The position numbers and the translations under genes were made by a program. A DNA stretch of 59,870 bases, the filler included. It is 4 parts of 4 records of this genome, joined end to end, with 100 filler letters (N's around TTAATTAATTAA, not from the genome) between each part and the next. Parts side by side here need not be neighbours in the genome. Positions count along the whole stretch, not along the records: positions 9,339 to 37,532 come from SRR20825019_2601; 3 more parts are not named here. The stretch is one strand, 5' to 3'. Of the stretch, positions 9,339-37,532 are shown in pieces; the stretch's first letter is position 1; each line of letters starts with the position of its first letter. The notes beneath the pieces were generated by a model. It ran no database searches and was not told the DNA's origin. It saw only the letters and a program-made list of their open reading frames with translations.

Positions 9339-9420
9339 ACCCCCCCCCTCCCCCCCCCCCCCGGTAATCACAGTATATATTGGCACCTCGTCTAATAGCT
9401 AGCAGTAAATATAAGTGAAC

Positions 9421-10112
9421 ATGGCGGAACAAGACGGACCTTATTTGGTTAGTAGAGGACGTGAGTCTATATTCTCCTTAAGTCAAGTGTGTGAAATTCT
9501 GACGTTGTTACAGTTCTTGATGCAGATGGTATGCGCTTTTGCTCTTGGGATGGGATTGCTCTCCTAACTTGCTGTTATTTTACCTTTAGATCAGTGGTAT
9601 CTTCAGCAGCATCAGCTAAGGCAGGACATGGAACAGTCCACTCGATTGAAGAAAGAAAAAGAACAGTTTTCTCGTTTGAAGGTAGGTCGGAAAAATTGTA
9701 CAAGAACGGTTCGGGCCAGAGTTTAACACCAAGAAAATCTAGAGAAAAATGGAAGAAAAAGAGCTGTTGGAACAAGTGCGTTGGTTGATATTTTCATGAG
9801 TGTGTTGCCTTGGCCTAACATATACTTCAGGAAAATTTGAAAAAGCAGCAAAGGGTTGCCAGTGCCCAGAACTTAAAGAAAGCGAGTGAGAATGAAAAAC
9901 TGTCTTCCAAGTTTTCAAAATCTTCTGGCTCAATAACCAAAGTTGTGGCGGTTCGGAAAGACACTGGCGGAGGAGCTGCTACTTCTAGAGTTTCTGTCCA
10001 GATCGAGGGCAAAGCGAGCGAAACAAAGGACAAGAGCGTTGCCAACAAGAAAGAATCAGCACTTACAGCGTTGGGCGGGTACGACTCAGATTCGTCTTCC
10101 GAAGAAAGCTGA
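9421..10112 (+). CDS. Eukaryotic 5-exon gene, 153 aa, weakly FAM192A/NIP30-like
   Basis: Exons 9421-9460, 9514-9528, 9590-9681, 9743-9775, 9831-10112 join in frame with GT-AG introns of 53-61 nt; RGLLDADD, a coiled coil, and C-terminal LGGYDSDSSSEES. Confidence 0.6.
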
Positions 10113-10328
10113 TGCGCCTACTGCTCTTGAATATGCTATGGTCCCACGTCCCGGCTTCATAATGGCACACCGACGATCGGGTTATTTCCTACTGCCCCCT
10201 CAACATGCACGAAGACACTCCATTGTAAATCGCAAGTGCTTTCTCTCTTGATGGGCTTATGGCTGTTATATCGTTATTCCTTACGGAGAGACATGCACTA
10301 TCGTATGTATGGGACAAAGAAGTGTGCA

Positions 10329-11141
10329 TCAACCGTTCAACTCTGCTTCTAGAGAAGTTACTCTTTTCCGAAGAATCTGCAGGCGGTCTTCTTCATCAGC
10401 AGTGGACGACTTGATGCCTTTCAATTTTTGTATGTGTTCCTGGAAGGTCAGTTATGAAGTAAGTTATATGATGAAGCAACAATTGCCTTCGAATGCTCGA
10501 ACAATTACCTCAAGAAGCCGGACCTTATTGCGTTCAGTTTCCAGTTTTGCCAACTGGTCCTTTCGTCTACTGTCTACCATGTCATAGTTGTTACTGCTGA
10601 TGACTAGGCTATTGAAAGTGTCCTGCAGGGCTCTGATTCTTGCCGACAGGTCGAGGAACTCACGGCGATACTTGTTCCTGAAGATGACCCTCAACACCTT
10701 TGTTCTCTTTTCGTGTTGAGATGCCACTCTCTTGGCTTCCTTAAATACACGTTTAAGTCCCAGTGTTGAATTCATCGTTACAGTTCGCATACATTCAATA
10801 GAGTTTCGAACCTCTCTGCGAGCCTCAGTTCCTCTTCTGCAGGTACAAACGAAGGTCCTTTGAGTTCATATGTTGCGAACAGTCTTTCTACACATAGCAT
10901 TAACGCCTTTGTATTGTCCAAAAGGCTCCTTCTCTTCTCAGAAATTTCTTGAACCTGCGTCGCAGTCAGCAGATACACCAAAGCAGTGGATCAGGTAGTT
11001 TAGGACCTCATCATAAAGCTGTAACACGGCATTGGCCGCCACGTATCCCCGTTGACACGTTATGGCAAGGGTTGCAAATGCTGGGACAGGACTAGCAACA
11101 GCGGCCAAAACTCCGGCAGGTATTACTTCAAGCCCTGTCAT
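10329..11141 (-). CDS. Eukaryotic 4-exon gene, 212 aa, candidate HeLo/MLKL-N-like helical bundle plus coiled coil
   Basis: Exons 11141-11007, 10954-10793, 10739-10509, 10439-10329 join in frame (introns 52, 53, 69 nt); the domain call is inference. Confidence 0.6.
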
Positions 11142-11169
11142 GCTTCTGCTTGCATATGGCTGTAGTTTG

Positions 11170-11600
11170 TAGTATCAGTGAGTGGTGCGGCGCACGACCT
11201 TTATGCAACTTCAGTTCTTCATCAGCCAGCCGGGCCGCACCTGACCACGCCAGCGCGCCTTCGCGTTGGCAGCGCCCCTGTCCGTCCGAGTGAGTCCGCC
11301 CAGAAACTCCGGCTCTGCCAGGGCCTGAGAGACCGGCCGGTCCCGCGGGCCGGGCCCGGGGGCGGCGCCGCGCCCCGACGACCGGAGCGGCGCGGCGCCC
11401 CCCGGCCGCGCCTGACACTGTTCGGAGTCACGGTGTTCTTCCACTGTTCCGAGGCCGGAAACCCGAGCAGGCGCCCGCCGAGGCAGCGTGCCGCCCTGAC
11501 GGCGCTCACTGACTGGCCGGGGGCGGCCGGGGCGGGCCCCGGGGGCGAGCCGCCGGGTCCTGGGCGGCGGGCCACACACCACGTGCCGGCATAAGGGGAC
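11170..11600. promoter_or_regulatory. GC-rich island between divergent genes (putative bidirectional promoter)
   Basis: Very GC-rich and apparently non-coding; TCAGTGAGT at 11175, CTCACTGACT at 11505. Confidence 0.55.
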
Positions 11601-11710
11601 AGTTGAACCGAAACTTCACCTGCCACCTTTTCCGCTTAACTCTTGCTGATGGGCGGGATAACGATAGATACAAGGCGTTTGACAGTCCTCACTTTTGTCA
11701 GTAGACTAAC

Positions 11711-12619
11711 ATGCCATCACCAAATATGTCCACTAGTGAAGGTGACAGACTTTCGGTGCAAAATGAGCTGAAGGAATTAATGAACAAGCGCGGTGATATG
11801 GAAAAAGACATGGACAATATTGTGTATCGGCTAGAAGTCAGCCCCGAATTCAAGCGTAGGTTGTGGTGGATCGTGGCTGCACTTCACGATATTCACTTTT
11901 TTGATCACAGAGGTTGGGCTTCAGGGCCCATTGGTTGATAAGGAGGGGTTTCCAAGAGCAGATATTGATGTTCACGCGGTTAGGACGTTAAGAAATAGAC
12001 TTGCCATGCAAAGGAACGACTATAAGGCAGTCATGTCTAGTATCGAGACCAAATTGCATGAGCTGCACAGTCTCGGAGGCCCAATCAAGACCAACGAGTC
12101 CACGCAGGCGGCCCCCGTAGCTACTGCCCCCCAGAGTGTGTCAAGCAACACGATGGTCGATCCGCGACCGGCCACTGCTCCGGCATCAGCCCCTAGTCAA
12201 GAGGGTCAAGCGGTTGACCTCTCGTCACTGCGGGCCTTCGCAAGAGTGAACACCGTGTCAGCCGGGAGCCCCGCGGAAAGGGCAGGTCTTACAGGAGGTG
12301 GGTGGCCGGATTGTCATTGTTGGGACAGACGGCATCTGTGTTCGTTAACATGGGTTGGTGTTTAGGCGATCTCATTCTTCGCTTTGGAAGCCTTGACCAT
12401 ACCAATTTCAAGGCCTTGGCCGACCTTGCGCCTATCGTGCAGTCCAGCGTGAACAGACCTCTCACAGTAGGCGTGGAGCGAAACGGAGAGAGGTTGACGC
12501 TGTCGTTGACACCGGCGACTTGGGGAGGTCCGGGTCTCTTGGGGTGAGTGCAGATCTCATTATCGACTATTCTCTTCTCTGGCTGAGTCTTAACTAGGTC
12601 ACACATACTGCCTCTATGA
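11711..12619 (+). CDS. PSMD9: 26S proteasome assembly chaperone Nas2/p27, 243 aa, 4 exons
   Basis: LVDKEGFPRADIDVHAVR (Nas2_N) plus PDZ-like SPAERAGL..GDLILRFG..W.GPGLLG.HILPL; exons 11711-11855, 11911-12297, 12366-12543, 12598-12619. Confidence 0.92.
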
Positions 12620-12673
12620 TCATTTACTGTTTGTGGAAACTGAAATCGCCGTTGCGCCAGAGAGCATCTCAAC

Positions 12674-15600
12674 CTATTTCCCTTCGTCGCCTGGCGCGCC
12701 TCCATCTGCAGACTCTGTAGAGGCCGCTGGGTTTGTAAAATGAACATGGTGGTCGTCTTCGTTGTCAGGTTTCACCGGGAGGGGGGGATCCTTGACGAGG
12801 CCTTGGTGCTCAATGTTGCTGTTGGAAGGCCGGGGTGATGAGTAGTCCGGCTTATGGTCTACACCAAGAAACCCTTCTGCCTCAGAGGCTTTCGCCCCCC
12901 CGTGTTGTTGTGTGACCGGCGATATCTCCAGGTCGCCCATGTTTGCTGCGGTGTGGGCCAGTTTCTCGGCTAGGCGCGTGTTAAGCTTCTCGTACAATTC
13001 CTCACGATAAGAGTTCAGCATCCACATTTCAGAATTCAGCAGGTCGATGTCATCCTTAACCCTTTCTAATTCTTTTAGAAGCTCTGAATACCCCAATGCC
13101 GACAATGTGTCCGCGGATCGCCGCCGTACCCTTCCCTCTTTTTCATATCTCTCCACCGGCCCCGATATTTCCGCCCCAACAACAGATTTTTCAGGGGCTG
13201 CGTCCATCAACTTGGCCTCAGCGCGGCCAACGAAGTCCTGAGTAGATATCATGTCAAGATATGTGAGAAAGGGCACACGAGCTCCACTTACCGCAAACTT
13301 CGAAGTGCCCTTCCCTTTCCCTTCTTGCTCTTTACCTTTGCCCCCAAATCCTCTTGGGGAGTTCAAACCATCAGCGCTGTCTGCCTCAGATACGATAGAA
13401 TACGAAGGACCTCTCTCTTGAGTACTGAACACAGACGACCGCCCAGACGCGGACCTCCCCCGTTGCTCGTCATGGACAGAGGTGCGGCGCCCATGAGGCA
13501 AAACCTTTGTCAATAAGTGAAGAGAATTGGTGATCGAGCTTCTGGCTCCCTTTGACATAGGGAATACCTGATTCCTCCTTGCGCTGCAAATTGGTAAGCA
13601 AATCGTATAAATCAAAGAAAAAACACATTACATACCCGTGTGCCGGCCCAAAATCAACATCTTCAACTATCCATTTCGTCTGCATATGGGGTGTAGTAAC
13701 AGCTCGATTAAAACCATCATGTGTTGAATAGTATTCCCTAAATGAACTTGAGCTCATGCCAAACAGTACAGCGCTCTTTTTTGCGAAGCAAGATCCCTTC
13801 CGGCGGTTCTGACCGTCCACTACTTCTTGCATCCCGGCAATTTCTCCCGGATGAACGTTGATATTGTGATCCAATCGCACCGTTGTGAGGACTCCATTGA
13901 AAACAAAATAGACATGGTCTGTATGGTCGCGAATCAGATAGACTGGGTTATTTTCGTTAACGCAAAGCATCGACATCTTCTCAAATACTTTGCTCTTTGT
14001 GTTGTCATCCAACTCGGAGAACACGTTCATGAAGCTCAGCATTTGAGCTTGTGCAGTCATGATTTCATTTCTCATGGCAAGATTCAATTCGCTCTCAGCC
14101 TTAAACAAGGTTTTGAAGTCGTTAAGTTGAACAGCATACACCACACAATACGTATTCGCTACGGCGTTCAGGCCCCGTCTCGGCCTCTGTCCTCCGATTC
14201 CCATTTCATCAAGGTTAGCTTCCAAGAAAGATTTCGCCTCTACAGCCCCGAAGACGCCACCGGCTTCGACGACGCGCATGATCGCATCGTTGGCCGCATC
14301 TTTCACATGAACAACACCTCGCTCCACGAAAAATAAATACTCCGCCAAATCACCTGCACGATACACATGTTGACCGGGTGTGAAACTAACTCCCTTCATC
14401 ATGCTACACAAAGAATGAGAACACACTCATTGTCCCAATACAATAACATACGCTGATAGCGCCCGCTTGGTCGGACCCTTTAGAGCATTCAGCATGGGGC
14501 TTTTCAGAATAACTTTGCTTGTATCAAATTCATGGACCGAGTTCTCCAGGGCCGGTGACAGCATGCTCATAACTGGCCCAAAGATGCTCTCGCCCAATCG
14601 ATTGTCCCAGGTGTATTGATGAAATTCCCAAATTCGCCTCTGTAGTTTCTTTGGGTATCTGCGGTACTGCATGTACGCGTTCAACAGGGACATCCTGTCC
14701 CTAAACTCGATGATGTCCCGTCGAACATTCAGAATGCTATCTGTCATGCGGCCTACAAGGTATGCATACACAGCCACTCCAAGCATTTCCATTATAACTG
14801 CGAAGATGATCTGGCTGTTTGTCTTTGGCGTGATATCACCATAGCCCACTGTGGTAACCGTGGTAACCACCCAGTACACACCACGTAGGTATACATCCCA
14901 AAGGGTTCCCTTGTACTCTCCATCAATAAGCTTCTGGTCTTCCTCCAAGAGAAAGATCCACGAGCAAGAGGCAAAGTGCATCATTAGCAAGCCCCAGGTC
15001 GCTGTAAAGCAAATCCCCAACAATACTGGAATGTACCCTGGTCGTTGAGTTCGAACTTGAATATATGACATTAAGCGATACATTCGAATGATACGAAGGC
15101 ACCGCAGAGGCTTCAGCTCCGATAGAAGTAGATCAAAGGGAAACGTTGCCAAGAAATCCAAAAAGAAGTCACCACTGAAAACGTACATCTTTGCAATAGT
15201 TTTCTGGTTGGTGATAAGTGTGCGTTCAGCCCGGTTCTCTCGGCAAGTAATAAATGTAAGCCCCATGTCTGAGCAAGAAAGAGTTACTTATCAACAAAGT
15301 GCCGTGCAAGCAATATCCCTACCGACAAAAAAGAATATAACGCACAGGTAGTTGACAGACCGGAAGATCCATCCCTGCCAATCATCCGTTTCAAGATTAA
15401 ATGTCAGGTCAAGAGGCACCTGGATCCTATTCACAAGTCAGAGCACATATACATATGGAAACGCGGTCTTCTTACGTCAAGTATATCACTAGGCACATAA
15501 TGAAAAGGTCCCATGCTGTTTTTAACCACGAACGAGGATTAATCATATATTTTGGCTTTTTCTGTACTGTAATTCCAAGCTACACCACTGTCAGATGTAT

Positions 15601-15910
15601 AATCGCATCTCAAAACCACGAGCCTACCATAAACTCGTCTTCCTTGTCCCGTTGTAGCTCCTGTGTTTCCCGAAGGGACTTTCCTTCAACTTTTCCGGCC
15701 TTTTCATGTTGCTCCATGATAGCTTTTTGTTCCGCAATAAGAACTCCCCGAACTCCTTGTTCCTCGCTGGTTTCGCCTTTATTGCCAAGCCTGCCAAGTC
15801 GTGTAAGCTTGAACAGCACCAAAAGTCGGAGTCAGAACTTACACCATGCTCGCAAGGTTGGCCGAGTTGGCGGTCTTTTTCTTCTGTTTTCTCATGAGAA
15901 CCCGAGACAT
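12674..15910 (-). CDS. Cyclic-nucleotide-binding-domain K+ channel (KCNH/CNG-like) with two CNBDs; multi-exon, start approximate
   Basis: DFLATFPFD, S4 LRCLRIIRMYRL, pore TVTTVGYGD, C-linker, two cNMP-binding-like domains in ORF 13470-14426. Confidence 0.85.
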
Positions 15911-16139
15911 GGCTGCCCTTTGTTACAAAAAACGAGGCAGCCGCTCACTAACGAATTGATAATAAATTATGTATGTCTGGTGTGTGAAGTGGCCTGGAGA
16001 ATGCAAGGCAAGTCACCGTCGAATATATGACCGAATACGTGATAAGGTCACACCGATCAGCCCTTCTAAAGCTACCACATTTGGTTGCGTAGAAGATGTA
16101 AGCACTTCTGAACCTTATACGCTACGTGAGGAGAGCAGT

Positions 16140-17700
16140 CGACACTTCGCGGCGCGTCCAGGAAAACGGCACTGGAGTCGCCCCCGGCCGGCCGGTGTGC
16201 CTGAGTGCTTTTTAGTGTTCTTGGTGACCGGGTGCTGCTCGCGGCGGTTCGCGGCGGCTGCGGGGCATGAGCGGACAGCACGGAGCCGAGCTAGCTAGGG
16301 CGTCGGGCGGCTGGCTGAGGGACGGCGCATTGAAGGGAAACCGCGCTGTCGTTCGCACTGGCCGGCGCCGGCCCTTTGCCATCCGGCTCGGCGTGGCAGT
16401 CATCAGTCCCCCGACGAGTGCCGGCGTCAGTGAGTGCCGGGCGGCCCGGGCCGGCGGGGCGCCGGGCGGGTTGCGGGGCAGCTCCCACCCGGGCCGGGCG
16501 GCCCCCCGGCCCTTGGGGCAGCACTTTTCATGCGGACCCGCGGCCGCCCGGCCCTCCGGGCGCTGCCGGGCCCGACCACTGCTCCGGAGTGGCGCCGGCG
16601 GGACCGGCCCGTGTCGCAAGTCCGGTTGATTGATGAGTGGGTGCGGAGGACCAGCGGGGTGATCTGAGGTCTATCTGCATGGGATGTGAAAATGATCTAT
16701 GTGGAATGGTTAACCTGGTTGTGCCGACATTGTTCATGACCGGTTACCGATGACAGCATGAGGATGATGACACACACAGCCTTTGCCGGACGGACTCGAG
16801 GCACGCCACCCCACCCGGCGGGGGCGCACCGGGGCCGCGGCGGCGGCAGCGGCTGCTTGCTGCCCTGATTGATCGACCACGACAGGTGGCCGATGTCATT
16901 GAGCGTTCGATCGAATTCGGCTCGAGCCGATGCCGGTGGCCCCAACCGAATGGCAGTGACGCGCCGACCACTCACCGAGCATTCCCAGCCGGCCGCCGGC
17001 TCGGGCCGCGCGCGCGGAAGCGGCGTCCCGGCCGGGCCGCCGCAGTCACGGGTGACGACGACTGCCTCCTCGTCGGCTGCTAGTGCCGCCGGGCCACGAC
17101 CGGCCAGGCGTTGGCCGCCGGCGACCGGCCGGGCGGGCTTCGCGTCCGGTCAGCGGGCCCGGAGTGTCGTTGGTCACGGCCCGGCGGGACGCCCGGCCGT
17201 CGTCGTCGCCGGTCCGTCAGCGTGCGGCTCGACACGGGACAGCACATTGTGAGTCTCAGGCCAGCGCCGCCACCCCGCCCGCCGCGCTACAGACGGCTTT
17301 CAGTAGGAGTGACCGAGCCCGGCCGGACCAGGGCCGGGCCGCGCGGCAGTCAGAGCCGTCCGCCAACGACAATGCCTGTGTTTGAGCCAGGGTCGGCCTC
17401 GATTCTGGAGGCACGCTGACGCGGGTCGGTCGTGCCACACCTAGCCACACCAGCCCAAGCAACCCCGCTGAGAGGTGGGAGGCTGGCGCCATAGTGTGCC
17501 AGGGAGCGGTGGCTGTGAGGCTACTGGCTTGTGTTATCTGCCTCCGGCTTTGACAGGCTGCGCTTTCAGGGCCCGCGATATTGCAGCATTGTAGCAAGAC
17601 GTCATACGTTGCGGAAAGGGTCGTCACCCGCGGAGGGGCCTTCCTGCTGGCAATAGGACTGGGGCCCACCCTTACCCTAGGGATCACCCTGGCAACCTAG
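16140..17700. promoter_or_regulatory. GC-rich island with lower-GC core (~16670-16790) between divergent genes
   Basis: Only low-complexity P/G/R/A ORFs; GTCAGTGAGT at 16426 and many GTCA/TGAG words. Confidence 0.5.
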
Positions 17701-17787
17701 TTCCAGGCGCTGATGAGTTAGTTTTCTTTATAATTAATGTTGAGGTATGGGTTAGGAATATTTCGAGGCTTCACCGTTGTAGTCAAG

Positions 17788-18212
17788 ATGGCCACAGATG
17801 GAGCTGAAAGTCTTGGCGCAACTTTGAACCCTCCGGATATTCCTGAGGTATGAAGGCTCGATCAAACTATTTTCATTTGTGCTGATTTAAGCCGTTTAGA
17901 CAATTATTCCTGACACAAGAACTAAGCGGGAATCGATTTTGGGGACAAAGAATGTCATTATTGTGCAAACACTGACCTATCTTATTGCTTGCTTTCCGTG
18001 CTTCATTGTAAGTTGCCTTGAATAATGCATTATGCTTTGTTGTCGCTAACTTAAGACAGGGTGTGGGCCTGGCGTTGCTGTGCTCATGGGGTTGGAAGCA
18101 CAGGAAAGATATGAACTGGTTGCACCATCACGAGACGAAGCGGCAGGCATCTATGACGTCTGCTGCGTCTGCAAAGGAAGGTGGCATGGTGCAGCTTGTT
18201 GAAGGTAGGTGA
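17788..18212 (+). CDS. Small membrane protein, 106 aa, 3 exons, unknown function
   Basis: Exons 17788-17847, 17900-18007, 18060-18212 in frame with two 52-nt GT-AG introns; hydrophobic segment VIIVQTLTYLIACFPCFIGVGLALLCSWGW. Confidence 0.65.
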
Positions 18213-18536
18213 TTGTTCGGAGAATTTGAAACTTCTCTAACTATGAGCATGGGGATTAGGGGCAACGTCTGACTCCCAGGTTTGATGACACCTTTGAAAC
18301 GTGTTGTTATCGTGGATTTTTTTTTGAGGATGACGCCGCACTTGCATAGCGCGGACGTTGCGACCTTTCCGTTGATTAATAGATTTTGTCGTAATAGTGA
18401 CAAGTTTGAAACAATGAGAACTCGTTTTGTCTCTACTTTGGATGTTAAGCTTTATCGGCTGGTGCACGATGCACTGTTTTGGACTTGTAACGCCCAAGAG
18501 CGGAGTGGTGAAGGGAAAAAGCAGCTAACACGAACT

Positions 18537-27699: not shown

Positions 27700-28640
27700 C
27701 GGTGCGTCCACTCTGACCGGCCCGGCCTGAGGCGGCCGTGAGGCGCCCCATAGCTTCGACTGTGAGTCAACCCCGGTGACAACAGTCGTCGCCGCCCGGA
27801 CATGGACAAGGGTTCACTGCACTGCCCGCCGAGCCGCCGGCTTCATGGCCCCGCCGAACCGGACCGGCGGCCCGCAACGGCCGGTGGAGTCACGCCTCAG
27901 GCGCCGGCCGCGGGATGAGCGTGGGGCTCAACCGGGCCCCCCTGGGCCAGTCCCCGGTCAGGCCCCCGCGGTGGCGGCCGCCCGGCCGGCCGGGCGGCGT
28001 TTGGCTGGCCGGCGCGCGGCGGGGCCGCGGCCCCTCGGCCTGGTCGGGCCGCGGTCCCGGCTGCCCGGGCCGGGTCCGGTCACGATCCGTGATTCAAAAC
28101 CTGGCCCACACCGACCACAAGCCATCGGCCAGGCATCAAAGGGCGCCCCACCCGCCGGGCAACTGCCGGCCGGCCGGGCGCTGGCACGGCCGCTCAGGGC
28201 GGGGCGGGGCCGGGCCCTGCCGGGTCGGCCGCCGCGGGCTGCCCTTGACTGCACTGGCCGGGACTGCTCGTGCGGGCCCATCCGAGTCAGGGCCATTGCT
28301 TGCGGTGATCGGAGCGAGCGCTGCCTGCTCAGTCACTGTCGGGGCCAGTGCCCTCAGCGCCCCCGGCAGCGGGCCTGGTCTCAGGCCAGACTCATCATGC
28401 CGGCCCCTCCTGAAAGTATGCGAATATCTTTTTTTTATCCATCCGGTCGGATGCAAGTTATACTAACAGATCAATCGCCACCGTGAGCCCGGCTCGGTCT
28501 CATCAGAGCGGACGGTTCCTTGGCAGCGGCGCCGCCGGCCGCCGGGCGCCCAGCCGGCCATCGCGCGCGGCCCCGGGCGGCGCGAGTCATGGGGCGACGC
28601 GCCACCACCACACTCAGTGTCGAGTGGCTAGACACCGGTC
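27700..28640. promoter_or_regulatory. GC-rich island with AT-rich core (~28412-28480) between divergent genes
   Basis: TGAGTCA at 27763, CTCAGTCACTG at 28328; only low-complexity ORFs. Confidence 0.55.
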
Positions 28641-28723
28641 GTCATGGACTCTCGTAAGTATTGCTCATATCCCAATTGGAGAGTTGCGAAACAGCTTGAT
28701 TTGTTTTGCGATCATCAGTCAAC

Positions 28724-29506
28724 ATGCCATTCACCGGAATTGTAGAAGAAATGGGACGCGTAGTGTCCATAGATATGAGCGACTCCCACTGTGATATAAT
28801 CATTGAAGCTACTGTTGTGTTGGAAGGCACTGAGCTTGGTATTTCTTGGTCGAGCTAGCTCGGAATCGTTTTACCTAACTCAAACTCAGGTCACAGCATT
28901 TCTGTTAATGGCACTTGCCTGACAGTTACCGAAATGTCAGGAAACACATTCAAAGTCGGACTTGTCCAGGAAACGTTGCGGAGAACGAACTTAGGCAGGC
29001 TTACAGAGGGTTCGAAAGTCAACCTCGAGCGAGCGATGACCCCCACAAGCAGGATGGGGGGGCACAACGTGCAGGGTCACGTGGATGGAACAGGCACTAT
29101 TAAGAGCAGGCGCGCAGATGGTGACTCCTTACGCTATGAAATCGAAGCATCCGAAGAAGTCATGCGATATGTTGGTGGGTTGTGAGATGGTATGGTGACT
29201 GGGGATGGACACTGATAAGGTTATTTGTAGTCGAGAAAGGCTACATTGCTGTGGACGGAACATCACTGACCGTGTGTGAGCCTACGGATACCACATTCGC
29301 ATTTTACATGGTCCCTTTCACCCAGGTAATATACGTAACTGGTGCTGATACGTGCCGGTCTGATTTGGTTGCCTCAGAAACATGTAATCATCACAGATAA
29401 AGGGGAGGGCGATATGGTGAACCTGGAAGTTGATATTCAAGGCAAGCTCATTGAAAAGTACGTGGAGAAGTACGCTGCACGCATTCTTGCCGGAGCAGCG
29501 AAGTAA
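28724..29506 (+). CDS. RIB5: Riboflavin synthase (alpha-chain type), 4 exons
   Basis: MPFTGIVEEMG, SISVNGTCLTV, VNLERA, GGHNVQGHVDG, KGYIAVDGTSLTV, VNLEVD; three short GT-AG introns. Confidence 0.93.
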
Positions 29507-29717
29507 CTATGGAAAATATTGCGACGCACATCACTGAGCCTGGCGCTGCGCACCACTTCGAAACAAAGGTTGCAAATCGGACCCCTGAATAAACGTAGGA
29601 AGATGTTGCAAACAGGTGGAATTGGAATACACATCTATTCTAAGTCAGCATATATGCTGGTTTCATCTTGGCCTCATCAGACATCTCCACTAATATGACT
29701 GTCAGCCACCTACACGC

Positions 29718-30757
29718 TTAACAAAGACTAGCATAACATATACCTGATGCCGCCTTCAATTCGGGGGGAAGGTCCGGCACAGCCCAGTAGCAGTCTTCTT
29801 CCAAAACCATGTTATTCTTTCCACGCACAATCTTGAAGAATCCATTATCTCCCCAATATGTTCCCCACGAGTTCCTGTCACAGAAGTTAGATTTTGAAAA
29901 CAGAATCCGGAATACAGAGCGGCACACCTTCCAATCCAGTACTTTGTACCGTTATCCTCACCCCATCCGACGATGGACACCAAGTGCTTAATCTGATCAG
30001 CACCTGTCTTGTCCTCGAATATCCCAGACTTGTAATTGTAAAACTCGTCAGTTACACTGATACCGCAGGCAATAGGACCACGGGCAAATATTTCGTGCAT
30101 CATGGGGTCTTCGTCCGCGACGTTACCAAACTCGCTCACCGAGACTTTGGTGGGATTAGGAACAGCAGAACAGGTGCCGTTCTTGGCGCAGTTCTTGCAC
30201 ACCTCGATTGTGGTACATGCCTTGGTCTTATCGTCCGAGGCAGTGTATGGTGTACAAGTTTCGTCTGTCAAGCCATACTGCTTGGCATATTGAAACACCT
30301 TCGAGGGGTGACCCCCACCACAATCACCAGCATCGCCACACTGAAGCATCAGCTGCGGTGACAAGTTGATCTCTGGCCACTGGCCTTGGCGCATAATCAT
30401 AACCCTATCAGATAGTGCCGAGAGGCTACCGAACGCCCAGCAAGCACCGCAATAGTGTGGGATATGTTGGTTCTTCAGGGCAGTAAGGTAGTTTCGTCCA
30501 CCAACATTTCTCCAGTCAAAGTTATTAGGTAGCTTAGGCTTGTTCTTCTTCTTATGCGGAAGCTCAGTCAACACAAGAGTCGGAATAGCCTCCCCATCAG
30601 CAAGCTTGATCTCCCCATCTACCGCATACTTTGACCGGCGAGCTCTTGCTGTCGCAAGATTCTGCACTCGCGTTGACAGGCTCTCTCCCCATGATCCCGA
30701 CGCCATCATCAAAATAAGCACCGCGCACACCCACACGGCTTGTCGTCGCAACTTCAT
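29718..30757 (-). CDS. CTSZ: Cathepsin X/Z-like cysteine protease; final exon boundary approximate
   Basis: Signal peptide; NQHIPHYCGACWAF with the cathepsin X HIP mini-loop; HLVSIVGWG; RNSWG formed across a ~50-nt intron. Confidence 0.9.
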
Positions 30758-30859
30758 GCTGACAGACCCACAGGACTCCAGGAGATTTGGAGCTAAGTTT
30801 TATATGGTGCGATGCCGGAGAAGGAAGGCCTGCCCCATACCAGATGGCCTATGGTGTTT

Positions 30860-31600
30860 CTGAGCGTCCCAGAGTCCCGTCGCGCGGTCGCAGGGCGTTG
30901 TGCCGCGCCGGCCACTGAGGCGAGAGAGACAGGAGTAGCGCACGGCCGACTCGGACTGGCTGAGCCTCCGGCGGCGGCCACGCCCGGGCCACCACCGGGA
31001 CGGCGACGCCGCGGCCATGACTAGCTTCCCGGTCGCGCAGGCCCCCCCCCCCGTCCGGTCCGGTCGCGCGGGGCGGCGGAGGTATGCGGCCCCCGGGACC
31101 GGGTGGGGCAATTTTCACTAGTACTGTTTGAGCCTGCGTAGCACTCAACTCTGCACTGAAAGACCACTGACGGTTGCTCTCTTTATAGGGCAGAAAGAAC
31201 CTTTTTGATTATTTTGCGGTTAACACCTACGGCGGTTTTTTGTTGATCGTGCGGACTGACAGTTACACATTGGATGCACGATTCCCACAGCGGCACAGCG
31301 ATGTGTGTGTGTTTTATTTCACCACTTCGTGGTTGCGGCCGTGCGCCTGACCCAGGCGCCGGAGCCAGGGGCCGTGGTCGTGTCCCAGTGAGCCCCGTCG
31401 CTCGCTGTCGGTACCACTGACGGAGCACCGGTTAGGATGCGGCCCCCTGGCAGCAGGACGGGACGAGGCGTGGAGGGACGATAGCCATGATGACGACGAC
31501 AGCCCGAAGCTGAGTGCCACAGCAAGACGGGGGGTGGGCAGACCACCACAGCACTGACCCCCGCTCGCCGACACGAACTGAGCGTTCTAGTAGACCTGCG
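30860..31600. promoter_or_regulatory. GC-rich island with AT-rich core (~31110-31320) between divergent genes
   Basis: Composition shift; repeated CACTGA/CAGTGA/CTGAG words. Confidence 0.5.
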
Positions 31601-31708
31601 AGGCAAATCGACTGAGAAACTGCCGAGAAAACGAAACGATCGGCACGTTTTGGCCCAGTAAAAATATGTGATAGACTCAAGGCGAGGGAGTTAGCACTGA
31701 ATATCACG

Positions 31709-32959
31709 ATGCCCGAGAAGTATCCAGGAGGTTACTACAGCGATGGCCAAGGCCGTGACACATACATTGTTAAGGATGCTGCGCGCCTGGTACGGTGACT
31801 GGAGTTTCATATGTACAAATAAGCTTAGGTTTTCTGTTTTACAGCAAGGTACCTATCAGAGGTCTGCTTATGACAAGAACCGCCCAAGGCCTAAGGAGCC
31901 CGTCCCGACTTCGCTGACTTTCGGCCCCCCTGTCGGGTATGTCGTGCATAACTAACAAGGAGACATCGGCGCTCACCACTTGCTGCAGATACCAAGGGCA
32001 CGTCCCCCACGCAAACTTTTATCATGGAAAGACTTATGGTCAGCAGTGCATCGACAGCGCTGTGGAGCGTGGAAAGATCCCGCCTCCCGCTCCGGCCCAG
32101 AAGATAGACGCCTCGACCCTTTTCAAGGGATCGTGCTATACTACTGGAGAAGGGCCAGACTCTCGCTGCGACGAGCCTGTGTCCTGCAAGGTCATGCACC
32201 CTCCTGGTAAGATTGGCTTTGGTTTGCAAAGAGGCTCAATTGACCGCCCAGACAGAGCCATACACCCACCACCTTTCCCCGCGGTCCCTTAAGAATCGCA
32301 TCATCAACCGATACCAAACCACAAATATGTTCGAGTATGGAGAGGATCAGGAATACACCAAACCCATTCTCCCGCCATATCTCCATCATATTCCTGGGTG
32401 AGTCGATATTTGTTACGTTGGCATGTATTGGCTAATGGGAAAGTTAGATATGCTGGCCATGTTCCCCGCACACACGTCCATGCTTCCTACCTGAACATGA
32501 TGGATTCCGAGAAGCCCGTGCCGGCTCATGTAGACCCCAATCAGTACCAGTCTGAAGGGGAGTACGCTGAGGCGTGCGTTCGTGACCTCTTCGATCGCCT
32601 GCATCAGCAGGGTGACGTGAGTGCCCATCCGATGTCTTGTTCGAATCTGGATCATTGATTGTCTGTCATAGGATTCTGCGTTTACTGCTTACATGAGCGA
32701 TATGGTGAGCCACGGGCCCGAGGGAGATTTGTCCGGCGAGGACCTCTTCAACGTGGTAGTGCAGACACGAGCGGCCCTGGACGATGGCTCCCAGACCGTA
32801 TCGATCGACGGAGTTGAGTGGGATCAAGAGAACTCCACGCTATCGTTCAAGATCACCTATGCGGGCACTAAGGATGGCGAGGCCACAACCCTGTTTGAAG
32901 ACGTCCCATGCAAGTATCGCTTTGATGCGCAGGCGGGAAAGTTTGTGGAGGCGTGGTAG
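31709..32959 (+). CDS. FAM166/C2orf70-like ciliary microtubule inner protein candidate with an extra acidic C-terminal domain; multi-exon
   Basis: DGQGRDTYI, YQGHVPHANFYHGKTYG and HIPGYAGHVP (formed across an intron); ORFs 31939, 32213, 32398 and 32693 link by GT-AG introns. Confidence 0.6.
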
Positions 32960-33120: not shown

Positions 33121-36100
33121 TCACCGAGGGGTGTTGTCACCTTCGACCTGAATAGCTGAGAGTTTGGTCTCCAGGAACGCAGCTAGCTGCTCATATCCGG
33201 ACGAGAGCTCTACTAAGCCTGCTTTGTATGAGTGCCACATGCCTAAATTCATGGTAAGGGCAGAGACCACATCGTCTATGTTCAGTGCTGTTGTTGAAAG
33301 AACCAGTCTCCAATCATTCAGGTTGGCATGTCGAGCAGCAGAACTTAAGGTCCGCAGGTCAGCTATCCTATCACACAAAGGATGCCCCTGTCCGCCATGA
33401 GGAGTTCGGGCGGATGCGACAGTCGCCTCGATTGCTGTCTCCATGAGTGAGTTGGATGGCTTCGGAACGGCCATATCACCATGAATCTTTGACAGCACAA
33501 CACTATATCGCTCTACATGTTTGACATTGGCTGCTTCCTGCACCAACCAATCCGCTGGGTCGATGCCTATAACACTGCGTCATTACAAATTGGGAACGCG
33601 GCTACCAAGCACTTACCTAAACCCCGGCACAAGTGCATCAGGGGTGACATCCGTCCTTCTCTGAACAGCTCGTGCAAATGCTCACACAAAACTTCCTCCA
33701 AGGGACCTCGCCTGCCCCCAAACAGAATGGCCGGCATATGGGTAGCATCCACGGATGAGTGCTTCCGGGGAGGCGGGCTCTCGATGGCTGACTCGGCACC
33801 GGATTCGCTTCCCATCTCAAAGCGCGAAGACAAGAATCTCACCAGTTCAGCTATGAGCTCCACATCCGATGTTTGCAGCGACTGCAAACCATTCTCAATG
33901 CCATGCAAACATTTGCCACAAGCAAAGTCACTCACCTGTCTAAACAGCTCCATTCCTAAGCGCTGACACACCTCCTGCCCCTCCATTGTCTGAATTACTA
34001 GCAAGTAGAGCGCAGCCGTTCGAAGTTCCCCCGATGAGACACATTCCTGGAACAACACTTCGGGCCGCCCAACGAGGTCAAAATAATGTGACCATCCAGT
34101 ATAATCAGTTTTCCTTGCACAATTAACTAAGATTAGATGATAATGAACAGAGTGATGAAGCAGCTCCAGCACTCGCTTAAAGAGGTCAGGCGGTTTCACA
34201 ACAGCTGACGCAATATCCACATCGCGTGGTGAGCGATTCAATGCTTGCTGTTTTGCTTTCTCCTTGAAATATCGGAACTCATCCTCGTAGCAACTGTACA
34301 GCAGCAGTTCCAGTGACGATGTCAAGTACGGAAGGTGCGCGAGGTTAGCGCAAAGAGATCTTACAGGACCAACAGACTTAGTCCGGAGCAAGTACTTGAA
34401 GATGGAATGTAAGAATGGTTGAACCACAGGCCGAATCGAGAATGTAGGCAACGAACTTCCATGGAAAGTTGTCACGCTGCTAACACCAACAATTACACCC
34501 GAGCCTGAGAGAATCCCCTGGCACATGACTTCCTTGTCTGTTTCCAGAATAGAATCACATATGAAAGCCTCACGCCTCTGTCCAGGGTATAGCAGTTGCA
34601 AGCCACTGCTGCTATAGCACCAGAGTGTACTCTCCGTCAGCAAGGCGTCTACAAACCAGAAATTCTCGGCATTCTTCATGATGATGGCCTCACGACCGGA
34701 GCCAATCGTCAATATGGAGAGTCTACGATTCAAATGCGTTAAGCCACATACACTAGGAAACAAGTCTCTCTCACCTTCCGTTTCCACGAAGCATAAAGCA
34801 CTGCGTTGGGGATGCCCCAGTGATCGCGGTGGTGCCATTCTGATTGGCTGAAGATGCGCCAAACTCCATGTTCGTGCGTGAGAGGCAGACATATGCCGGC
34901 ACAGGCAAATTGTCAGCGAATCGGCACGTTGATATCATTTCAATGGACAGCTTCGTCATCCCTTCCATGTCATCCCATTGCCCATTAAAATGGTACAAGA
35001 CTGCCTCATGGGTGTGCGCAATTACCAATAGATAGTCATCGTGAACATCCATGCATGCAGGCACGCAGTCTAGTCTCTCGCACAAAAGCATCCCGTCAAG
35101 GTCTAGTTGGTCAGGGTGAAAGCACCGCAGCTCAACCGAGTTGTAACCTGTCTCGTGCACCAACACCAAGATGTCACCATGCCACAGTAACCCGCGCACA
35201 GATGTAGCCCGCTCCTGCCGCAGGTCGTTGAACGTTTCCCATTTTCCAGTGTTGACACATAGCACTGCCACTCCGTGTGTTCCCGACACTGCAATTCGTC
35301 GGCCATCTTTGTCAGGGGCAACGTAGCGGATGGGCCAATTATCATTAATATATGACTTCTTCACCTGTTTCGACGAATTCAGGCCATTGCACCAACACCA
35401 GATACTCAGATGGAACTCACCTCCACGTGCGACCACTTGGGGCGCTTCCCGGGAGAATGCTTGAGAAGAACTATAGAGTCGCTTCCTTGGAATGTGACCC
35501 CGGCCGCCTCGTTCTTGTTGACATTGTGAATGCAGCACTGCTTGATAAATGACAACTCGCACAGCTCGAACTGATCTTCGTCTTTCGCCGCAATAAGGAG
35601 AAAGTATCCCTGAGTAGCCCAGACCACACAGGAGGCCCCGTGCCTTGCGGGTTCAAGACATCTCCCACCTGAAAACTGAGGAATCGTGCAGCTCAGCCTG
35701 GTACCCACGGGTGACCATACAGCCACGCCCCTCTTGCTATACCCCACTGCCAGTGCATGTCCGTCGTCGGTCCACTGCATGCACTCCACCCCACCGGTTT
35801 CCTCGGGATCCAGATTCCAATGGCTCATCTCCAGGCATCCACACGCCTCATTCCCGCTCCCCTTGGCGATGCTGAACATCTTGGTGTGGCCCTGGCTCGT
35901 CCCAACCGACACCAGGAGTCGTCTATCGTTGATGCGGACACATGTCCCGTCCTCCACAGCCAGCCACGACCCGTTCCGGAACGAATGTCTGTTCCATGTC
36001 ACCTTGCCCTGCAAAGTCATGGTGTCTGTTTTGCAGAAGCACAAACCAGCCCGCCCGGACGACGTTACAATCGCTGCGAGAACTTGTTGGAAATAGCCTT

Positions 36101-36922
36101 GTCATTTTTATTGTGACAGCACTTACCCAGCATGCGAATGTGCGGCCGTACATGGACGTCCACCACGGCCTCCTCTGACGAGCCATTGAAAACGTTATCA
36201 CAAAGGCTTTCCAGCTGCACCCCATGGCCCGACCACGGCACCAGAGCGATGTGCATGTTCTCAGTGCCAACGAGGACACTGCTCCCATTATCCACAAGAC
36301 TGCGGCACTAAGTCAGAGACGGTCAACCTCCTCATGTTCACACATACCAGAATGCGGCCTTCCCACACTCGATGGTTCGCGCCTGTTTGATATCCACCTG
36401 GGAGTAGCTGAGCCCGGGCCATGCCGCAGAACCACTTGAGAAAAACCCCCCTCCCTCCTTGACAGGCGTCACAGTGAAAACGTGCACAAATCCATTGGTC
36501 GTCTGGCGTGAGCAGTTAGCTTTGGAGGATAGGGTGATGCGTCATCATACCAGTGCGGCTAGCTGGGAGGTGAACGTACACCAGCATATATCAACGTAGG
36601 GCCCCTCTGCCTCAAGAGCCGCCGTGCTCTGTCGCTCTAGTGCGCCCAGCAAGATCCGGTACTGAACCAGGTGTCAGCGACAGCAATCCTGAAAGCAAAG
36701 GGACAACACCGCACCTTTCCTCCTGACCAGATCGTGACGCCTACTGGTGTGACACACGCCAGTAGATCAAAGTCCTCGCTGTAGACTGAGCGAATGACAT
36801 TCCGGTTCGACCGCACCCCAGCTATATGCACCCATCAGCACCTTAGTCACATATCAGCTGGATTCCTTACGCTTGTGGCCGCCGTGGGAATACGTGCGCG
36901 GCTGGCCAGTGCAGAAATACAT
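33121..36922 (-). CDS. RIC1: RAB6 GEF complex subunit RIC1; multi-exon
   Basis: N-terminal MYFCTGQPR; YINDNWPIRY; RIC1-domain VNCARKTD..W..YF...G.P..LF..C....LRTAALYLLVIQ. Confidence 0.9.
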
Positions 36923-36999
36923 ATCCGGTGGAGGAATTTCGACATCGTGGAGCGGCGCCATATATATGTCTATGTGCACTTGGTGGCGTTACCAGTGAG

Positions 37000-37532
37000 T
37001 ACTACCGGAGCGCTGTTGATGGTCGGATGGCCCTACTATCCCGGCCATGAGAGTTTGGGTCACCGCCTGCGCGTTGGGCCGTGCCGTGACCGGCCGAGTC
37101 GGGACCGGCGTGACGGCGCGGCGGCTCCGCCGCCGGTCGACGGCGGGCGGCGCTAGCGCGCGCCCCGGGACCCCCGGTCCGGACCACCGGCATGGAAGTC
37201 CCGTCCGGCACCGCCGGCGCCCGGCCGCCGGGGCGGGGCGGGGCCGGGGGGGGTCCGCGTCGTCACCGCTGACCCGGCCTGACCGGTCCCGGAGTCCGGT
37301 CATCGCATCACTGGCTCAGCCAGGCAGGCCGCAGTCAGTTGCCCCGGGCGGGGTGCAGTGCCGGTCAGTGGCCGGACCCGGCGGACCGGCCTGGGGTGAG
37401 GAGTCTCTCCGCCGCGTCGGTCGGTCGCCAGCCGCTGCACCCCGGCCAGCGCCGGGCGGGGCGCGGCCGGGTGCCGCGCCGCGCGGCCCCGTGCCCGGGC
37501 CCCGGGCCGCCAGTGACCCCCGCGGGGCTGGT
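37000..37532. promoter_or_regulatory. GC-rich island upstream of RIC1; the contig ends inside it
   Basis: Extreme GC with CAGTCAG/GTCAGTG/CAGTGAC words. Confidence 0.5.

What the first reader, a model, noticed from the sequence alone, without database searches (positions are those of the whole stretch)
9339..37532. Eukaryotic genome in which 14 consecutive genes alternate strand perfectly
Seen: after manual intron reconstruction the order is + - + - + - + - + - + - + - (NIP30-like, HeLo-like, PSMD9, channel, TM protein, Tim44-like, DNAI2, kinase, PSI protein, CCDC33-like, RIB5, CTSZ, FAM166-like, RIC1). Convergent stop-to-stop gaps are only ~55-325 nt. Divergent start-to-start gaps are ~0.57-1.9 kb and each holds a GC-rich island. 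With random orientation, 13 successive switches have probability 0.5^13 (~1e-4). Inference: the genome may be built from obligate head-to-head pairs, with bidirectional promoters and shared or overlapping 3' ends. The paired genes are functionally unrelated, so the constraint looks architectural rather than co-regulatory.
Basis: partly seen in the sequence, partly recalled or inferred. Interest (0 to 1): 0.8.

Follow-up and report, generated by a model that had tools for sequence, protein, structure and literature searches.

The report
Strictly alternating genes in a protist contig
One 28-kb piece of an uncultured marine flagellate's nuclear genome carries 14 genes that switch strand at every step, with GC-rich promoter spacers between gene starts and touching gene ends, which hints at an unusual genome layout but is shown here for one contig only.

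Summary
Window 9339-37532 is exactly one eukaryotic contig (28,194 nt). It sits between artificial N/TTAATTAATTAA linkers and three bacterial contigs. I rebuilt 14 genes, and they run + - + - through all 13 adjacencies.

Strand evidence:
- Pfam domains read in frame for 9 genes.
- 15 of 15 displayed cDNA splice joints are GT..AG on the predicted strand (5 genes).
- Three cap-proximal transcript starts were mapped.
- GC skew agrees with the strand in 11 of 11 well-supported genes.

Stop-to-stop gaps are 54-251 nt and ATG-to-ATG gaps are 569-1877 nt. Every divergent gap is GC-rich (55-73% against 50% in genes) and shows no coding signal. cDNA contigs show convergent transcripts meeting or overlapping for two pairs.

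No other contig of this organism could be reached, so "obligate" and "genome-wide" remain untested. With 13 of 13 switches, the 95% lower bound on the switch rate is about 0.79. The three mapped starts each have their own TATA-like element about 30 nt upstream, at the island edge. The pairs therefore look like two outward core promoters around a GC-rich spacer, not one shared bidirectional promoter. Genes 2 and 13 rest mostly on ab initio evidence.

The parts
9239..9338 (.). Artificial linker (N44 + TTAATTAATTAA + N44) joining a bacterial contig to the eukaryotic contig
9421..10112 (+). g1, 5 exons, 153 aa, no family match (reader: NIP30-like)
   Evidence: Ab initio model with 4 GT..AG introns of 53-61 nt that keep the frame. 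GC skew +0.19. No Pfam match for 2 exons.
10329..11141 (-). g2, 4 exons, 200 aa, orphan coiled-coil protein (reader: HeLo-like). This is the weakest strand call.
   Evidence: ORF and 3 GT..AG introns on the minus strand. GC skew -0.08. A cDNA contig covers 10179-10759 with the predicted intron 10440-10508 unspliced. No Pfam, PDB or sequence relatives.
11142..11710 (.). Island 1, divergent gap g2/g3, GC 67.7%, CpG o/e 0.98
   Evidence: no Pfam match for its ORF
11711..12619 (+). g3, PSMD9/Nas2-like proteasome chaperone, 4 exons, 243 aa
   Evidence: Nas2_N E 9.7e-23. Three cDNA joints GT..AG on the + strand.
12674..15910 (-). g4, cyclic-nucleotide-gated cation channel, 8 exons, 959 aa
   Evidence: Ion_trans, Ion_trans_2 and cNMP_binding. 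cDNA record 1 is spliced at 14404-14451 and, by record arithmetic, at 13238-13291 and 13584-13635.
15911..17787 (.). Island 2, divergent gap g4/g5, GC 65.4%, CpG o/e 1.03, the longest island
   Evidence: No codon periodicity. 0 Pfam families for 5 ORFs.
17788..18285 (+). g5, small membrane protein, 4 exons, 112 aa; transcript start at 17765
   Evidence: Three cDNA joints GT..AG on the + strand and a template-switch junction at 17765. TATA-like element about 30 nt upstream.
18537..19583 (-). g6, Tim44-domain protein, 5 exons, 276 aa
   Evidence: Tim44 matches two exons in colinear order (E 5.1e-07 and 9.4e-04). Four cDNA joints CT..AC, which is GT..AG on the minus strand.
19584..20575 (.). Island 3, divergent gap g6/g7, GC 59.3%
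20576..22430 (+). g7, axonemal dynein intermediate chain 2, 4 exons, 560 aa; transcript start at 20511
   Evidence: Homologues named dynein intermediate chain 2, best 56-58% identity. Three cDNA joints. An identical spliced contig occurs in a marine metatranscriptome.
22567..23613 (-). g8, protein kinase, single exon, 348 aa
   Evidence: Pkinase E 3.3e-27. cDNA contigs cover 22446/22448-23459.
23614..24616 (.). Island 4, divergent gap g8/g9, GC 55.1%, the weakest island
24617..25309 (+). g9, secreted PSI (plexin-repeat) protein, single exon, 230 aa; transcript start at 24568
   Evidence: PSI E 9.5e-12. Template-switch junction at 24568 in two runs.
25544..27573 (-). g10, long coiled-coil protein with a possible N-terminal C2 domain, 3 exons, 640 aa
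   Evidence: 585-aa ORF with a codon score of 197 bits. C2 only at E 0.065. No relatives found.
27574..28723 (.). Island 5, divergent gap g10/g11, GC about 71%, peak 78%
   Evidence: measured over 27574-28643; 0 Pfam families for 2 ORFs
28724..29506 (+). g11, riboflavin synthase, 4 exons, 207 aa
   Evidence: Lum_binding E 5e-25. Two cDNA joints GT..AG on the + strand. Start revised.
29640..30757 (-). g12, papain-family (cathepsin-like) cysteine protease, 3 exons, 336 aa
   Evidence: Peptidase_C1 E 3.9e-42. Model. No RNA was laid here.
30758..31708 (.). Island 6, divergent gap g12/g13, GC 61.5%
31709..32959 (+). g13, FAM166/CIMIP2-like ciliary protein, 6 exons, 319 aa (weak homology)
   Evidence: Five GT..AG introns keep the frame. 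CMI2B-like E 0.0011, below the cut-off. FAM166B chains are the best PDB hits, E 0.0024. GC skew is neutral.
33121..36835 (-). g14, RIC1, many exons; the 5' end is uncertain
   Evidence: RIC1 E 2e-31 and Beta-prop_RIC1_2nd E 8.4e-39. Model.
36836..37532 (.). Island 7 at the contig end, GC 73.3%
37533..37632 (.). Artificial linker to the next (bacterial) contig

Best explanation
This is a piece of the compact nuclear genome of an uncultured marine flagellate that could not be placed in a DNAI2 tree. About 2 kb is spent per gene, and introns are 45-89 nt.

On this contig the repeating unit is a convergent gene pair bounded by GC-rich non-coding islands: island, gene on +, 54-251 nt, gene on -, island. 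Each island has an outward-facing core promoter on either shoulder. Many of these carry a TATA-like element about 30 nt before the start. The 3' ends of convergent partners abut or overlap.

I read the perfect alternation as a sample of a strong genome-wide bias against same-strand neighbours, not as a proven absolute rule.

Inferred mechanism:
(a) One open, GC-rich promoter region serves two genes.
(b) A tandem layout would put a promoter directly behind a neighbour's very tight, read-through-prone 3' end, so it is selected against.
(c) Rearrangement breakpoints are tolerated only inside islands. A convergent pair is symmetric under inversion, so such rearrangements preserve the pattern.

Shown here: strands, gaps, islands, three transcript starts, and meeting or overlapping 3' ends for two pairs. 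Inferred: island function, selection, and extent across the genome.
For: - 13 of 13 adjacencies switch strand. Under random orientation P = 1.2e-4. The exact 95% lower bound on the switch rate is 0.05^(1/13) = 0.79.
- Pfam domains are read in frame on the called strand for 9 of 14 genes.
- 15 of 15 displayed cDNA joints are GT..AG on the called strand, for g3, g5, g6, g7 and g11. g4 is spliced in cDNA record 1.
- Template-switch junctions mark starts at 17765, 20511 and 24568 on the + strand.
- The sign of the GC skew matches the strand in 11 of 11 well-supported genes. It also agrees for g1 and g2.
- All 6 internal divergent gaps and the right contig end are GC-rich (55-73%) against 49.8% in genes.
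- The islands show no codon periodicity, 0 Pfam families for 10 ORFs, no tRNA or Rfam match, and no shared repeats.
- A TATA-like element lies 25-37 nt before all 3 mapped starts. One occurs within 150 nt upstream of the ATG in 8 of 14 genes, against 11.6% of random windows.
- One cDNA contig (X1 record 1, 3671 nt) runs from spliced g3 across the 54-nt gap into spliced g4. The g7 transcript reaches at least 22471, while contigs of g8 reach down to 22446.
- A second study's marine metatranscriptome holds an identical spliced g7 contig.
Against: - This is one contig from one organism.
- No second contig of this organism could be obtained.
- The strand of g2 rests on an ORF, predicted introns and GC skew. 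Its one displayed cDNA contig is unspliced and unstranded, and it has no relatives.
- g13 has only weak homology, and its GC skew is neutral.
- g12-g14 have no RNA evidence, because only 20,000 of the 28,194 nt could be laid. The output of that single call was also cut (13 joints, 11 loose ends and 57 pieces not shown).
- The cDNA libraries look oligo-dT/template-switch based. Non-polyadenylated or silent genes in the islands (up to 1.9 kb) are therefore not excluded.
- An X1 contig of depth 177.5 matches part of island 1 up to 11507 and then runs on unlike it. This is unexplained.
- Contigs are unstranded, so the 3' overlap is inferred from bridging and coordinates, not seen on single molecules.
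Confidence: 0.6

Rival explanations
1. The whole genome consists of obligate head-to-head pairs, each driven by one shared bidirectional promoter in the island, with shared 3' ends. Same-strand neighbours are essentially forbidden.
For: - 13 of 13 switches.
- An island lies in every divergent gap and in no convergent gap.
- Both contig ends lie at island edges.
- 3' ends meet or overlap in two pairs.
Against: - 13 of 13 is also likely at a switch rate of 0.85-0.9 (0.12-0.25), so 'obligate' does not follow.
- The 3 mapped starts sit at island shoulders with their own TATA-like elements.
- ATG-to-ATG spacing is above 1 kb in 3 of 6 pairs, up to 1877 nt.
- No start of a minus-strand partner was seen in the displayed rows, so sharing of a core promoter is untested.
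Confidence: 0.2
2. Chance. Orientation in this genome is close to random or only mildly biased. This contig is a lucky run that was noticed because very many windows were read.
For: - About 50% co-directional pairs is the norm in most of 64 eukaryotes surveyed (PMC2871058, passages read).
- The finding was selected after the fact.
- Wider divergent gaps and tighter convergent gaps arise in any compact genome, whatever the gene order.
Against: - P = 1.2e-4 per 14-gene contig. Even several hundred comparable eukaryotic contigs would give well under one such run.
- At a mild bias of 0.6 the probability is still only 1.3e-3.
Confidence: 0.12
3. Annotation or assembly artefact. The alternation is broken by a wrong strand call (g2 or g13) or by unseen genes in the islands, or the islands are foreign or chimeric DNA joined in during assembly of a mixed sample.
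For: - The window mixes bacterial contigs and one eukaryotic contig.
- g2 and g13 are weakly supported.
- The islands are long and resemble the GC content of the bacterial contig at 45047-59870.
Against: - The islands lack the third-position GC periodicity of coding high-GC bacterial DNA.
- They gave no Pfam match (0 families for 10 ORFs).
- Mapped transcript starts and TATA-like elements sit in continuous sequence at island edges.
- The minus-strand model of g2 and the plus-strand model of g13 clearly outscore the opposite strand.
- GC skew supports g1 and g2.
- Seven regularly placed chimeric joins are implausible.
Confidence: 0.08

Closest known systems
Head-to-head gene pairs at GC-rich (CpG-island type) bidirectional promoters of mammals
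   Same: Divergent, functionally unrelated genes flank a GC-rich region that is not CpG-depleted.
   Different: - In humans about 10% of genes are so arranged, with starts less than 1 kb apart (abstracts of PMC3082894 and PMC2077898, seen in the listing). Here it is every gene on the contig.
- Spacing is 569-1877 nt ATG to ATG.
- Mapped starts lie at island shoulders with TATA-like elements. That mammalian CpG-island promoters are typically TATA-poor is recalled, not tested here.
- Gene bodies here are only mildly CpG-depleted (o/e 0.77).
Compact animal and holozoan genomes rich in head-to-head genes (Amphimedon queenslandica)
   Same: [quoted passage not shown]
   Different: Amphimedon has 45% of genes head-to-head and about a third within 1 kb. 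That is near the random expectation for orientation. Here 13 of 13 adjacencies switch.
[quoted passage not shown]
   Same: They depart from the usual ~50% co-directional pairs (PMC2871058, passages read).
   Different: The direction and size of the bias are in a supplementary table and figure that I could not open, so I cannot say whether any of them approaches full alternation. The DNAI2 tree does not place this organism with opisthokonts, green algae, cryptophytes or haptophytes.
Polycistronic same-strand gene arrays of kinetoplastids
   Same: A genome-wide architectural rule on gene orientation that is unrelated to gene function.
   Different: This is the opposite extreme: 98% co-directional pairs in Leishmania (PMC2871058) against 0 of 13 here.
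Overlapping convergent transcripts in very compact genomes (nucleomorphs, microsporidia, yeasts; recalled, not looked up)
   Same: Stop-to-stop gaps of tens to a few hundred bases, with 3' ends running into the neighbour.
   Different: Those genomes are not known to me to alternate strand systematically, and they lack GC-rich promoter islands. This comparison is from memory only.

Membership tests
Bidirectional-promoter gene pair (operational definition: divergent genes with transcription starts under 1 kb apart) | The two genes lie on opposite strands, head to head | tested here: met
   6 of 6 internal islands are flanked by a minus-strand gene on the left and a plus-strand gene on the right.
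Bidirectional-promoter gene pair (operational definition: divergent genes with transcription starts under 1 kb apart) | Transcription starts less than 1,000 bp apart | tested here: inconclusive
   Only 3 plus-strand starts were mapped (17765, 20511, 24568). No minus-strand start appears in the displayed rows. ATG-to-ATG distances are 569, 951 and 992 nt (could pass) and 1003, 1150 and 1877 nt (cannot pass, or are unlikely to).
Bidirectional-promoter gene pair (operational definition: divergent genes with transcription starts under 1 kb apart) | Shared core or regulatory element driving both genes, or co-regulation | not testable with these tools
   Contig depth cannot rank expression (stated in the tool's own output). 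The 3 mapped starts have their own TATA-like elements at -25 to -37, which argues for separate core promoters.
CpG island (length over 200 nt, GC over 50%, CpG observed/expected over 0.6; criteria recalled) | Formal composition criteria | tested here: met
   All 7 divergent or terminal gaps qualify: 569-1877 nt, GC 55-73%, CpG o/e 0.83-1.05.
CpG island (length over 200 nt, GC over 50%, CpG observed/expected over 0.6; criteria recalled) | Stands out from a CpG-depleted (methylated) bulk genome | tested here: inconclusive
   Gene bodies have o/e 0.77 and convergent gaps 1.03. The contrast lies in GC content, not clearly in CpG depletion. Methylation cannot be tested here.
Convergent gene pairs with overlapping 3' ends | Transcripts of both partners cover a common stretch | tested here: inconclusive
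   g3/g4: one unstranded cDNA contig is spliced as g3 on one side and as g4 on the other, across the 54-nt gap. g7/g8: contigs share 22446-22471. This is suggestive, but the contigs are unstranded.
Genome-wide alternating (obligate pair) architecture | Near absence of same-strand neighbours across the genome | not testable with these tools
   No whole genome is held. The contig is not in genome contigs. Only distant DNAI2 loci were found in metagenome contigs. Nothing was found in earlier notes.

The most novel reading that the evidence does not exclude
The nuclear genome of this unplaced marine flagellate may be built almost entirely from inversion-symmetric units: one convergent gene pair between two GC-rich islands. 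Same-strand neighbours would then be nearly absent genome-wide. That would be a third kind of eukaryotic gene arrangement, beside near-random orientation and the same-strand arrays of kinetoplastids and dinoflagellates. It would be maintained because only island breakpoints are tolerated, and these preserve the pattern.
Probability: 0.25. Interest if true: 0.8.

Novelty: new variant of a known kind. Interest (0 to 1): 0.5.

Why it matters
If the bias holds across the genome, this organism would be a natural experiment on three questions:
- promoter directionality;
- transcriptional interference between neighbouring genes;
- how genome compaction shapes gene order.

Every promoter region would serve two genes, and every terminator region would be shared by two convergent genes.

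There are practical uses too. A strand prior plus the GC-island signal would sharpen gene prediction in fragmentary single-cell or metagenome assemblies of uncultured protists. The case also shows that a well-formed eukaryotic contig can sit inside a set of bacterial contigs.

If it does not hold, the contig is just a tidy example of a compact protist locus.

Tried and rejected
- **Whole genome:** none is held.
- **Genome contigs:** the DNAI2 peptide scan found no relative. An exact 36-nt pattern from g1 had 0 matches.
- **Metagenome contigs:** only 3 distant DNAI2 loci (41-59% identity, 1.6-3.9 kb). L003 shows a different downstream gene, so there is no synteny.
- **Earlier notes of this scan:** nothing by place, sequence or words.
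- **RNA cover of islands:** in the one read-laying run, the bins 16009-17342 and 28015-28681 had no cover in any of 3 runs.
- **g10 homologue search:** no hit at E<=1e-5 among 8000 candidates, probably swamped by coiled-coil words.
- **g2:** 1 weak hit (E 5.3e-4, coiled coil) in 1.84 billion representatives. No PDB hit. Only sub-threshold Pfam matches at E 0.02-0.18.
- **Intron position-weight model:** built from 16 RNA-supported introns to call strands without ORFs. It was too weak, with many equal-scoring false sites on both strands. It did reveal the two g4 introns.
- **Signals inside islands:**
  - no GC-skew switch and few G-quadruplex motifs;
  - no shared repeats, only short GC-rich tandem repeats;
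  - no tRNA or Rfam family;
  - no codon periodicity;
  - no Pfam match.
- **First gene-finder run:** allowing introns up to 700 nt fused neighbouring genes and was discarded.
- **DNAI2 tree:** the query sits on a long branch (1.57 against a median of 0.35) with no supported sister, and the careful search did not finish.
- **Literature:** six full-text searches found no paper that describes genome-wide strand alternation in a eukaryote. The supplementary table of PMC2871058, which gives orientation counts per species, could not be opened and may bear on novelty.
Full report
**What the window is**

The 59,870-nt window is not one molecule. Three identical linkers (44 N, TTAATTAATTAA, 44 N) sit at 9239-9338, 37533-37632 and 44947-45046. 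They join four contigs.

The finding's coordinates, 9339-37532, are exactly one complete contig of 28,194 nt. The other three contigs are bacterial:
- 1-9238 encodes a HisKA/HATPase_c kinase, a UDG-family glycosylase and a DBI_PRT phosphoribosyltransferase.
- 37633-44946 encodes ArdC and a type IV secretion coupling protein.
- 45047-59870 is 60-66% GC. It has uninterrupted MFS, threonine dehydratase, ABC, MIP, cation-efflux and TauE genes.

The "eukaryotic genome" of the finding is therefore represented here by a single contig in a mixed set. No whole genome is held for the window.

**Gene models**

I trained a codon model on five long ORFs. I then wrote a small exon-chaining gene finder. With introns limited to 40-110 nt it resolved 14 gene models. 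An earlier run that allowed long introns fused neighbours and was dropped.

I checked junctions by eye. I corrected them with transcript data. The resulting models are:

| Gene | Strand | Coordinates |
|---|---|---|
| g1 | + | 9421-10112 |
| g2 | - | 10329-11141 |
| g3 | + | 11711-12619 |
| g4 | - | 12674-15910 |
| g5 | + | 17788-18285 |
| g6 | - | 18537-19583 |
| g7 | + | 20576-22430 |
| g8 | - | 22567-23613 |
| g9 | + | 24617-25309 |
| g10 | - | 25544-27573 |
| g11 | + | 28724-29506 |
| g12 | - | 29640-30757 |
| g13 | + | 31709-32959 |
| g14 | - | 33121-~36835 |

Thirteen of 13 adjacencies switch strand. All predicted introns are GT..AG and 45-89 nt long. Genes span about 70% of the contig.

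**Independent evidence for the strands**

*Pfam.* Domains are read in frame on the called strand for 9 of 14 genes:
- g3: Nas2_N
- g4: Ion_trans and cNMP_binding
- g6: Tim44, in two exons in colinear order
- g7: WD40 families, plus homologues named dynein intermediate chain 2
- g8: Pkinase
- g9: PSI
- g11: Lum_binding
- g12: Peptidase_C1
- g14: RIC1 and its second propeller

*Transcripts.* Three public runs hold the sequence. Two of them (one sample, one study) carry spliced contigs. Their loose ends read like a template-switch oligo and a transposase adapter. Those identifications are from my memory of the adapters. So these runs are cDNA, not the source of the intron-bearing contig.

I laid them on 9339-29338, which is 20,000 of the 28,194 nt, in the only call allowed. 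All 15 displayed joints were canonical on the predicted strand:
- 3 in g3
- 3 in g5
- 4 in g6 (seen as CT..AC)
- 3 in g7
- 2 in g11

Record 1 also shows g4 spliced at 14404-14451. By record arithmetic it is also spliced at 13238-13291 and 13584-13635, which corrected my model without changing the stop.

Template-switch junctions mark 5' ends at 17765 (g5), 20511 (g7) and 24568 (g9). A contig from a marine metatranscriptome of a second study is identical over 648 nt of spliced g7.

*GC skew.* The sign of the GC skew on the plus strand matches the strand in 11 of 11 well-supported genes. It agrees for g1 (+0.19) and g2 (-0.08). It is neutral for g13.

**Weak points of the gene set**

- g1, g2 and g5 have no family match. 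g5 is nevertheless well supported by RNA.
- g2 is the weakest gene. It is transcribed (contig 10179-10759). That contig is unstranded and leaves the predicted intron 10440-10508 unspliced.
- g2 has no PDB hit and only one weak coiled-coil hit among 1.84 billion representatives. Its Pfam matches are all below threshold.
- If g2 were on the plus strand, the left end would read + + +.
- g13 has five frame-keeping introns. Its similarity to FAM166B/CIMIP2B is weak: Pfam E 0.0011, below the cut-off, and best PDB E 0.0024.
- g12-g14 have no RNA evidence.
- The names NIP30-like, HeLo-like and CCDC33-like are not supported by anything I could run. The spliced g1 protein could not be submitted to the family tools.

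**The gaps**

| Measure | Convergent gaps | Divergent gaps | Genes |
|---|---|---|---|
| Size (nt) | 216, 54, 251, 136, 234, 133, 161 (stop to stop) | 569, 1877, 992, 1003, 1150, 951 (ATG to ATG) | - |
| GC | 46.3% pooled | 55-73% each, 64.4% pooled, peaks to 78% | 49.8% |
| CpG o/e | 1.03 | 0.99 | 0.77 |

Composition is.

The divergent gaps and the right contig end are GC-rich. The contig starts with a poly-C tract 60 nt before g1's TATA-like element. It ends inside an island. Both ends therefore look like island edges.

The islands:
- show no third-position periodicity
- give 0 Pfam families for 10 ORFs
- have no tRNA or Rfam match
- are not repeats of one another

They are therefore neither hidden high-GC coding genes nor bacterial inserts.

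**Promoters and 3' ends**

All three mapped starts lie in the AT-richer shoulder of an island. Each has a TATA-like element 25-37 nt upstream. Such an element occurs within 150 nt upstream of the ATG in 8 of 14 genes, against 11.6% of random windows.

This points to two separate, outward-facing core promoters around a GC-rich spacer. It does not point to one shared bidirectional core promoter. In three pairs the ATGs are more than 1 kb apart.

At the other end, one cDNA contig is spliced as g3 on one side and as g4 on the other, across the 54-nt gap. The spliced g7 transcript reaches at least 22471, while contigs covering g8 reach down to 22446. Convergent transcripts therefore meet or overlap in at least these two pairs. 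Because the contigs are unstranded, this is an inference.

**Is it more than chance?**

Under random orientation P = 0.5^13 = 1.2e-4. At a mild bias of 0.6 it is 1.3e-3.

With 13 of 13 the exact 95% lower bound on the switch rate is 0.79. The nominal P ignores that the contig was noticed among many windows. Several hundred comparable contigs would still give far fewer than one such run.

In a survey of 64 eukaryotes, co-directional pairs were about 50% in most species. Leishmania had 98%. Monosiga, C. merolae, T. pseudonana and C. neoformans were "less random" (PMC2871058, passages read). The per-species numbers are in a supplement that I could not open.

Amphimedon is described as having the most potential bidirectional promoters among animals. 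It has 45% of genes head-to-head (PMC4773876, passages read).

I conclude that a real orientation bias in this organism is likely. An absolute rule is unproven.

**Who is it?**

The best DNAI2 relatives are only 56-58% identical. The named ones come from Ancoracysta, Rhodelphis, Palpitomonas, cryptophytes, green algae and Cyanophora.

In a quick maximum-likelihood tree the query sits on a long branch with no supported sister. It falls outside the opisthokont, green, cryptophyte and haptophyte groups. The careful search did not finish. I therefore call it an unplaced marine flagellate.

Neither the contig nor a close relative was found in the two contig collections that I could scan.

**Mechanism**

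*Shown:*
- alternating strands
- island and gap anatomy
- three transcript starts with TATA-like elements
- meeting 3' ends

*Inferred:*
- Each island acts as an open promoter region serving two genes.
- Tandem layouts are disfavoured. They would place a promoter directly behind a tight, read-through-prone 3' end.
- A convergent pair is symmetric under inversion. Rearrangements that break only in islands therefore preserve the pattern, while breaks in the 54-251-nt convergent gaps would damage two genes.

**Verdict**

In kind, this is an extreme variant of known head-to-head and tail-to-tail gene packing.

The decisive test is a neighbour-orientation count on the organism's other contigs with stranded RNA. 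That test could not be run here.

Noticed in passing
window 9239-9338, 37533-37632, 44947-45046: The window is a concatenation of four contigs joined by N44+TTAATTAATTAA+N44 linkers. Three are bacterial and one is eukaryotic, so the source set is of mixed origin.
   Followed up: yes
window 37633-41072: The bacterial contig carries ArdC (ArdcN + zincin-like metallopeptidase) next to a type IV secretion coupling protein (T4SS-DNA_transf, TraG-D_C). It looks like part of a conjugative element.
   Followed up: partly
window 9339-37532: Introns are very short and uniform. The 16 RNA-supported ones are 48-68 nt and all predicted ones are 45-89 nt, all GT..AG.
   Followed up: partly
window 11484-11507 (island 1): A cDNA contig of depth 177.5 in run X1 matches up to 11507 with a 1-nt deletion at 11484. 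It then continues for 143 nt unlike the window. It may come from another organism or be a chimeric contig. This is unexplained.
   Followed up: no
window 25090-25143 (g9): A 21-nt tandem repeat (2.6 copies) lies in the alanine-rich tail of the PSI protein. cDNA contigs of both runs break off at 25099 and 25143 with different sequence. This may be allelic or paralogous length variation.
   Followed up: no
window 10440-10508 (g2): The predicted 69-nt intron is unspliced in the displayed cDNA contig 10179-10759. The intron is either retained or not real. If it is not real, the g2 reading frame ends at a stop at 10464-10466.
   Followed up: partly
window 9340-9362: The eukaryotic contig starts with a 23-nt C-rich homopolymer-like tract. 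The assembly probably broke at the edge of another GC-rich island.
   Followed up: no
window 20576-22430 (g7): The DNAI2 protein sits on a very long branch (1.57 against a median of 0.35 changes per site) in a tree of 33 sequences. The lineage is either fast-evolving or deep.
   Followed up: partly
L003 1-3941: A metagenome contig holds a DNAI2 C-terminus (59% identity) followed by a convergent WD-repeat gene on the other strand. It is a different organism and there is no synteny with the window.
   Followed up: partly
window 9339-29338: The cDNA contigs differ from the contig at 17 listed single positions over 20 kb. The transcriptome cells and the genome are therefore close, but perhaps not identical, strains or alleles.
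   Followed up: no
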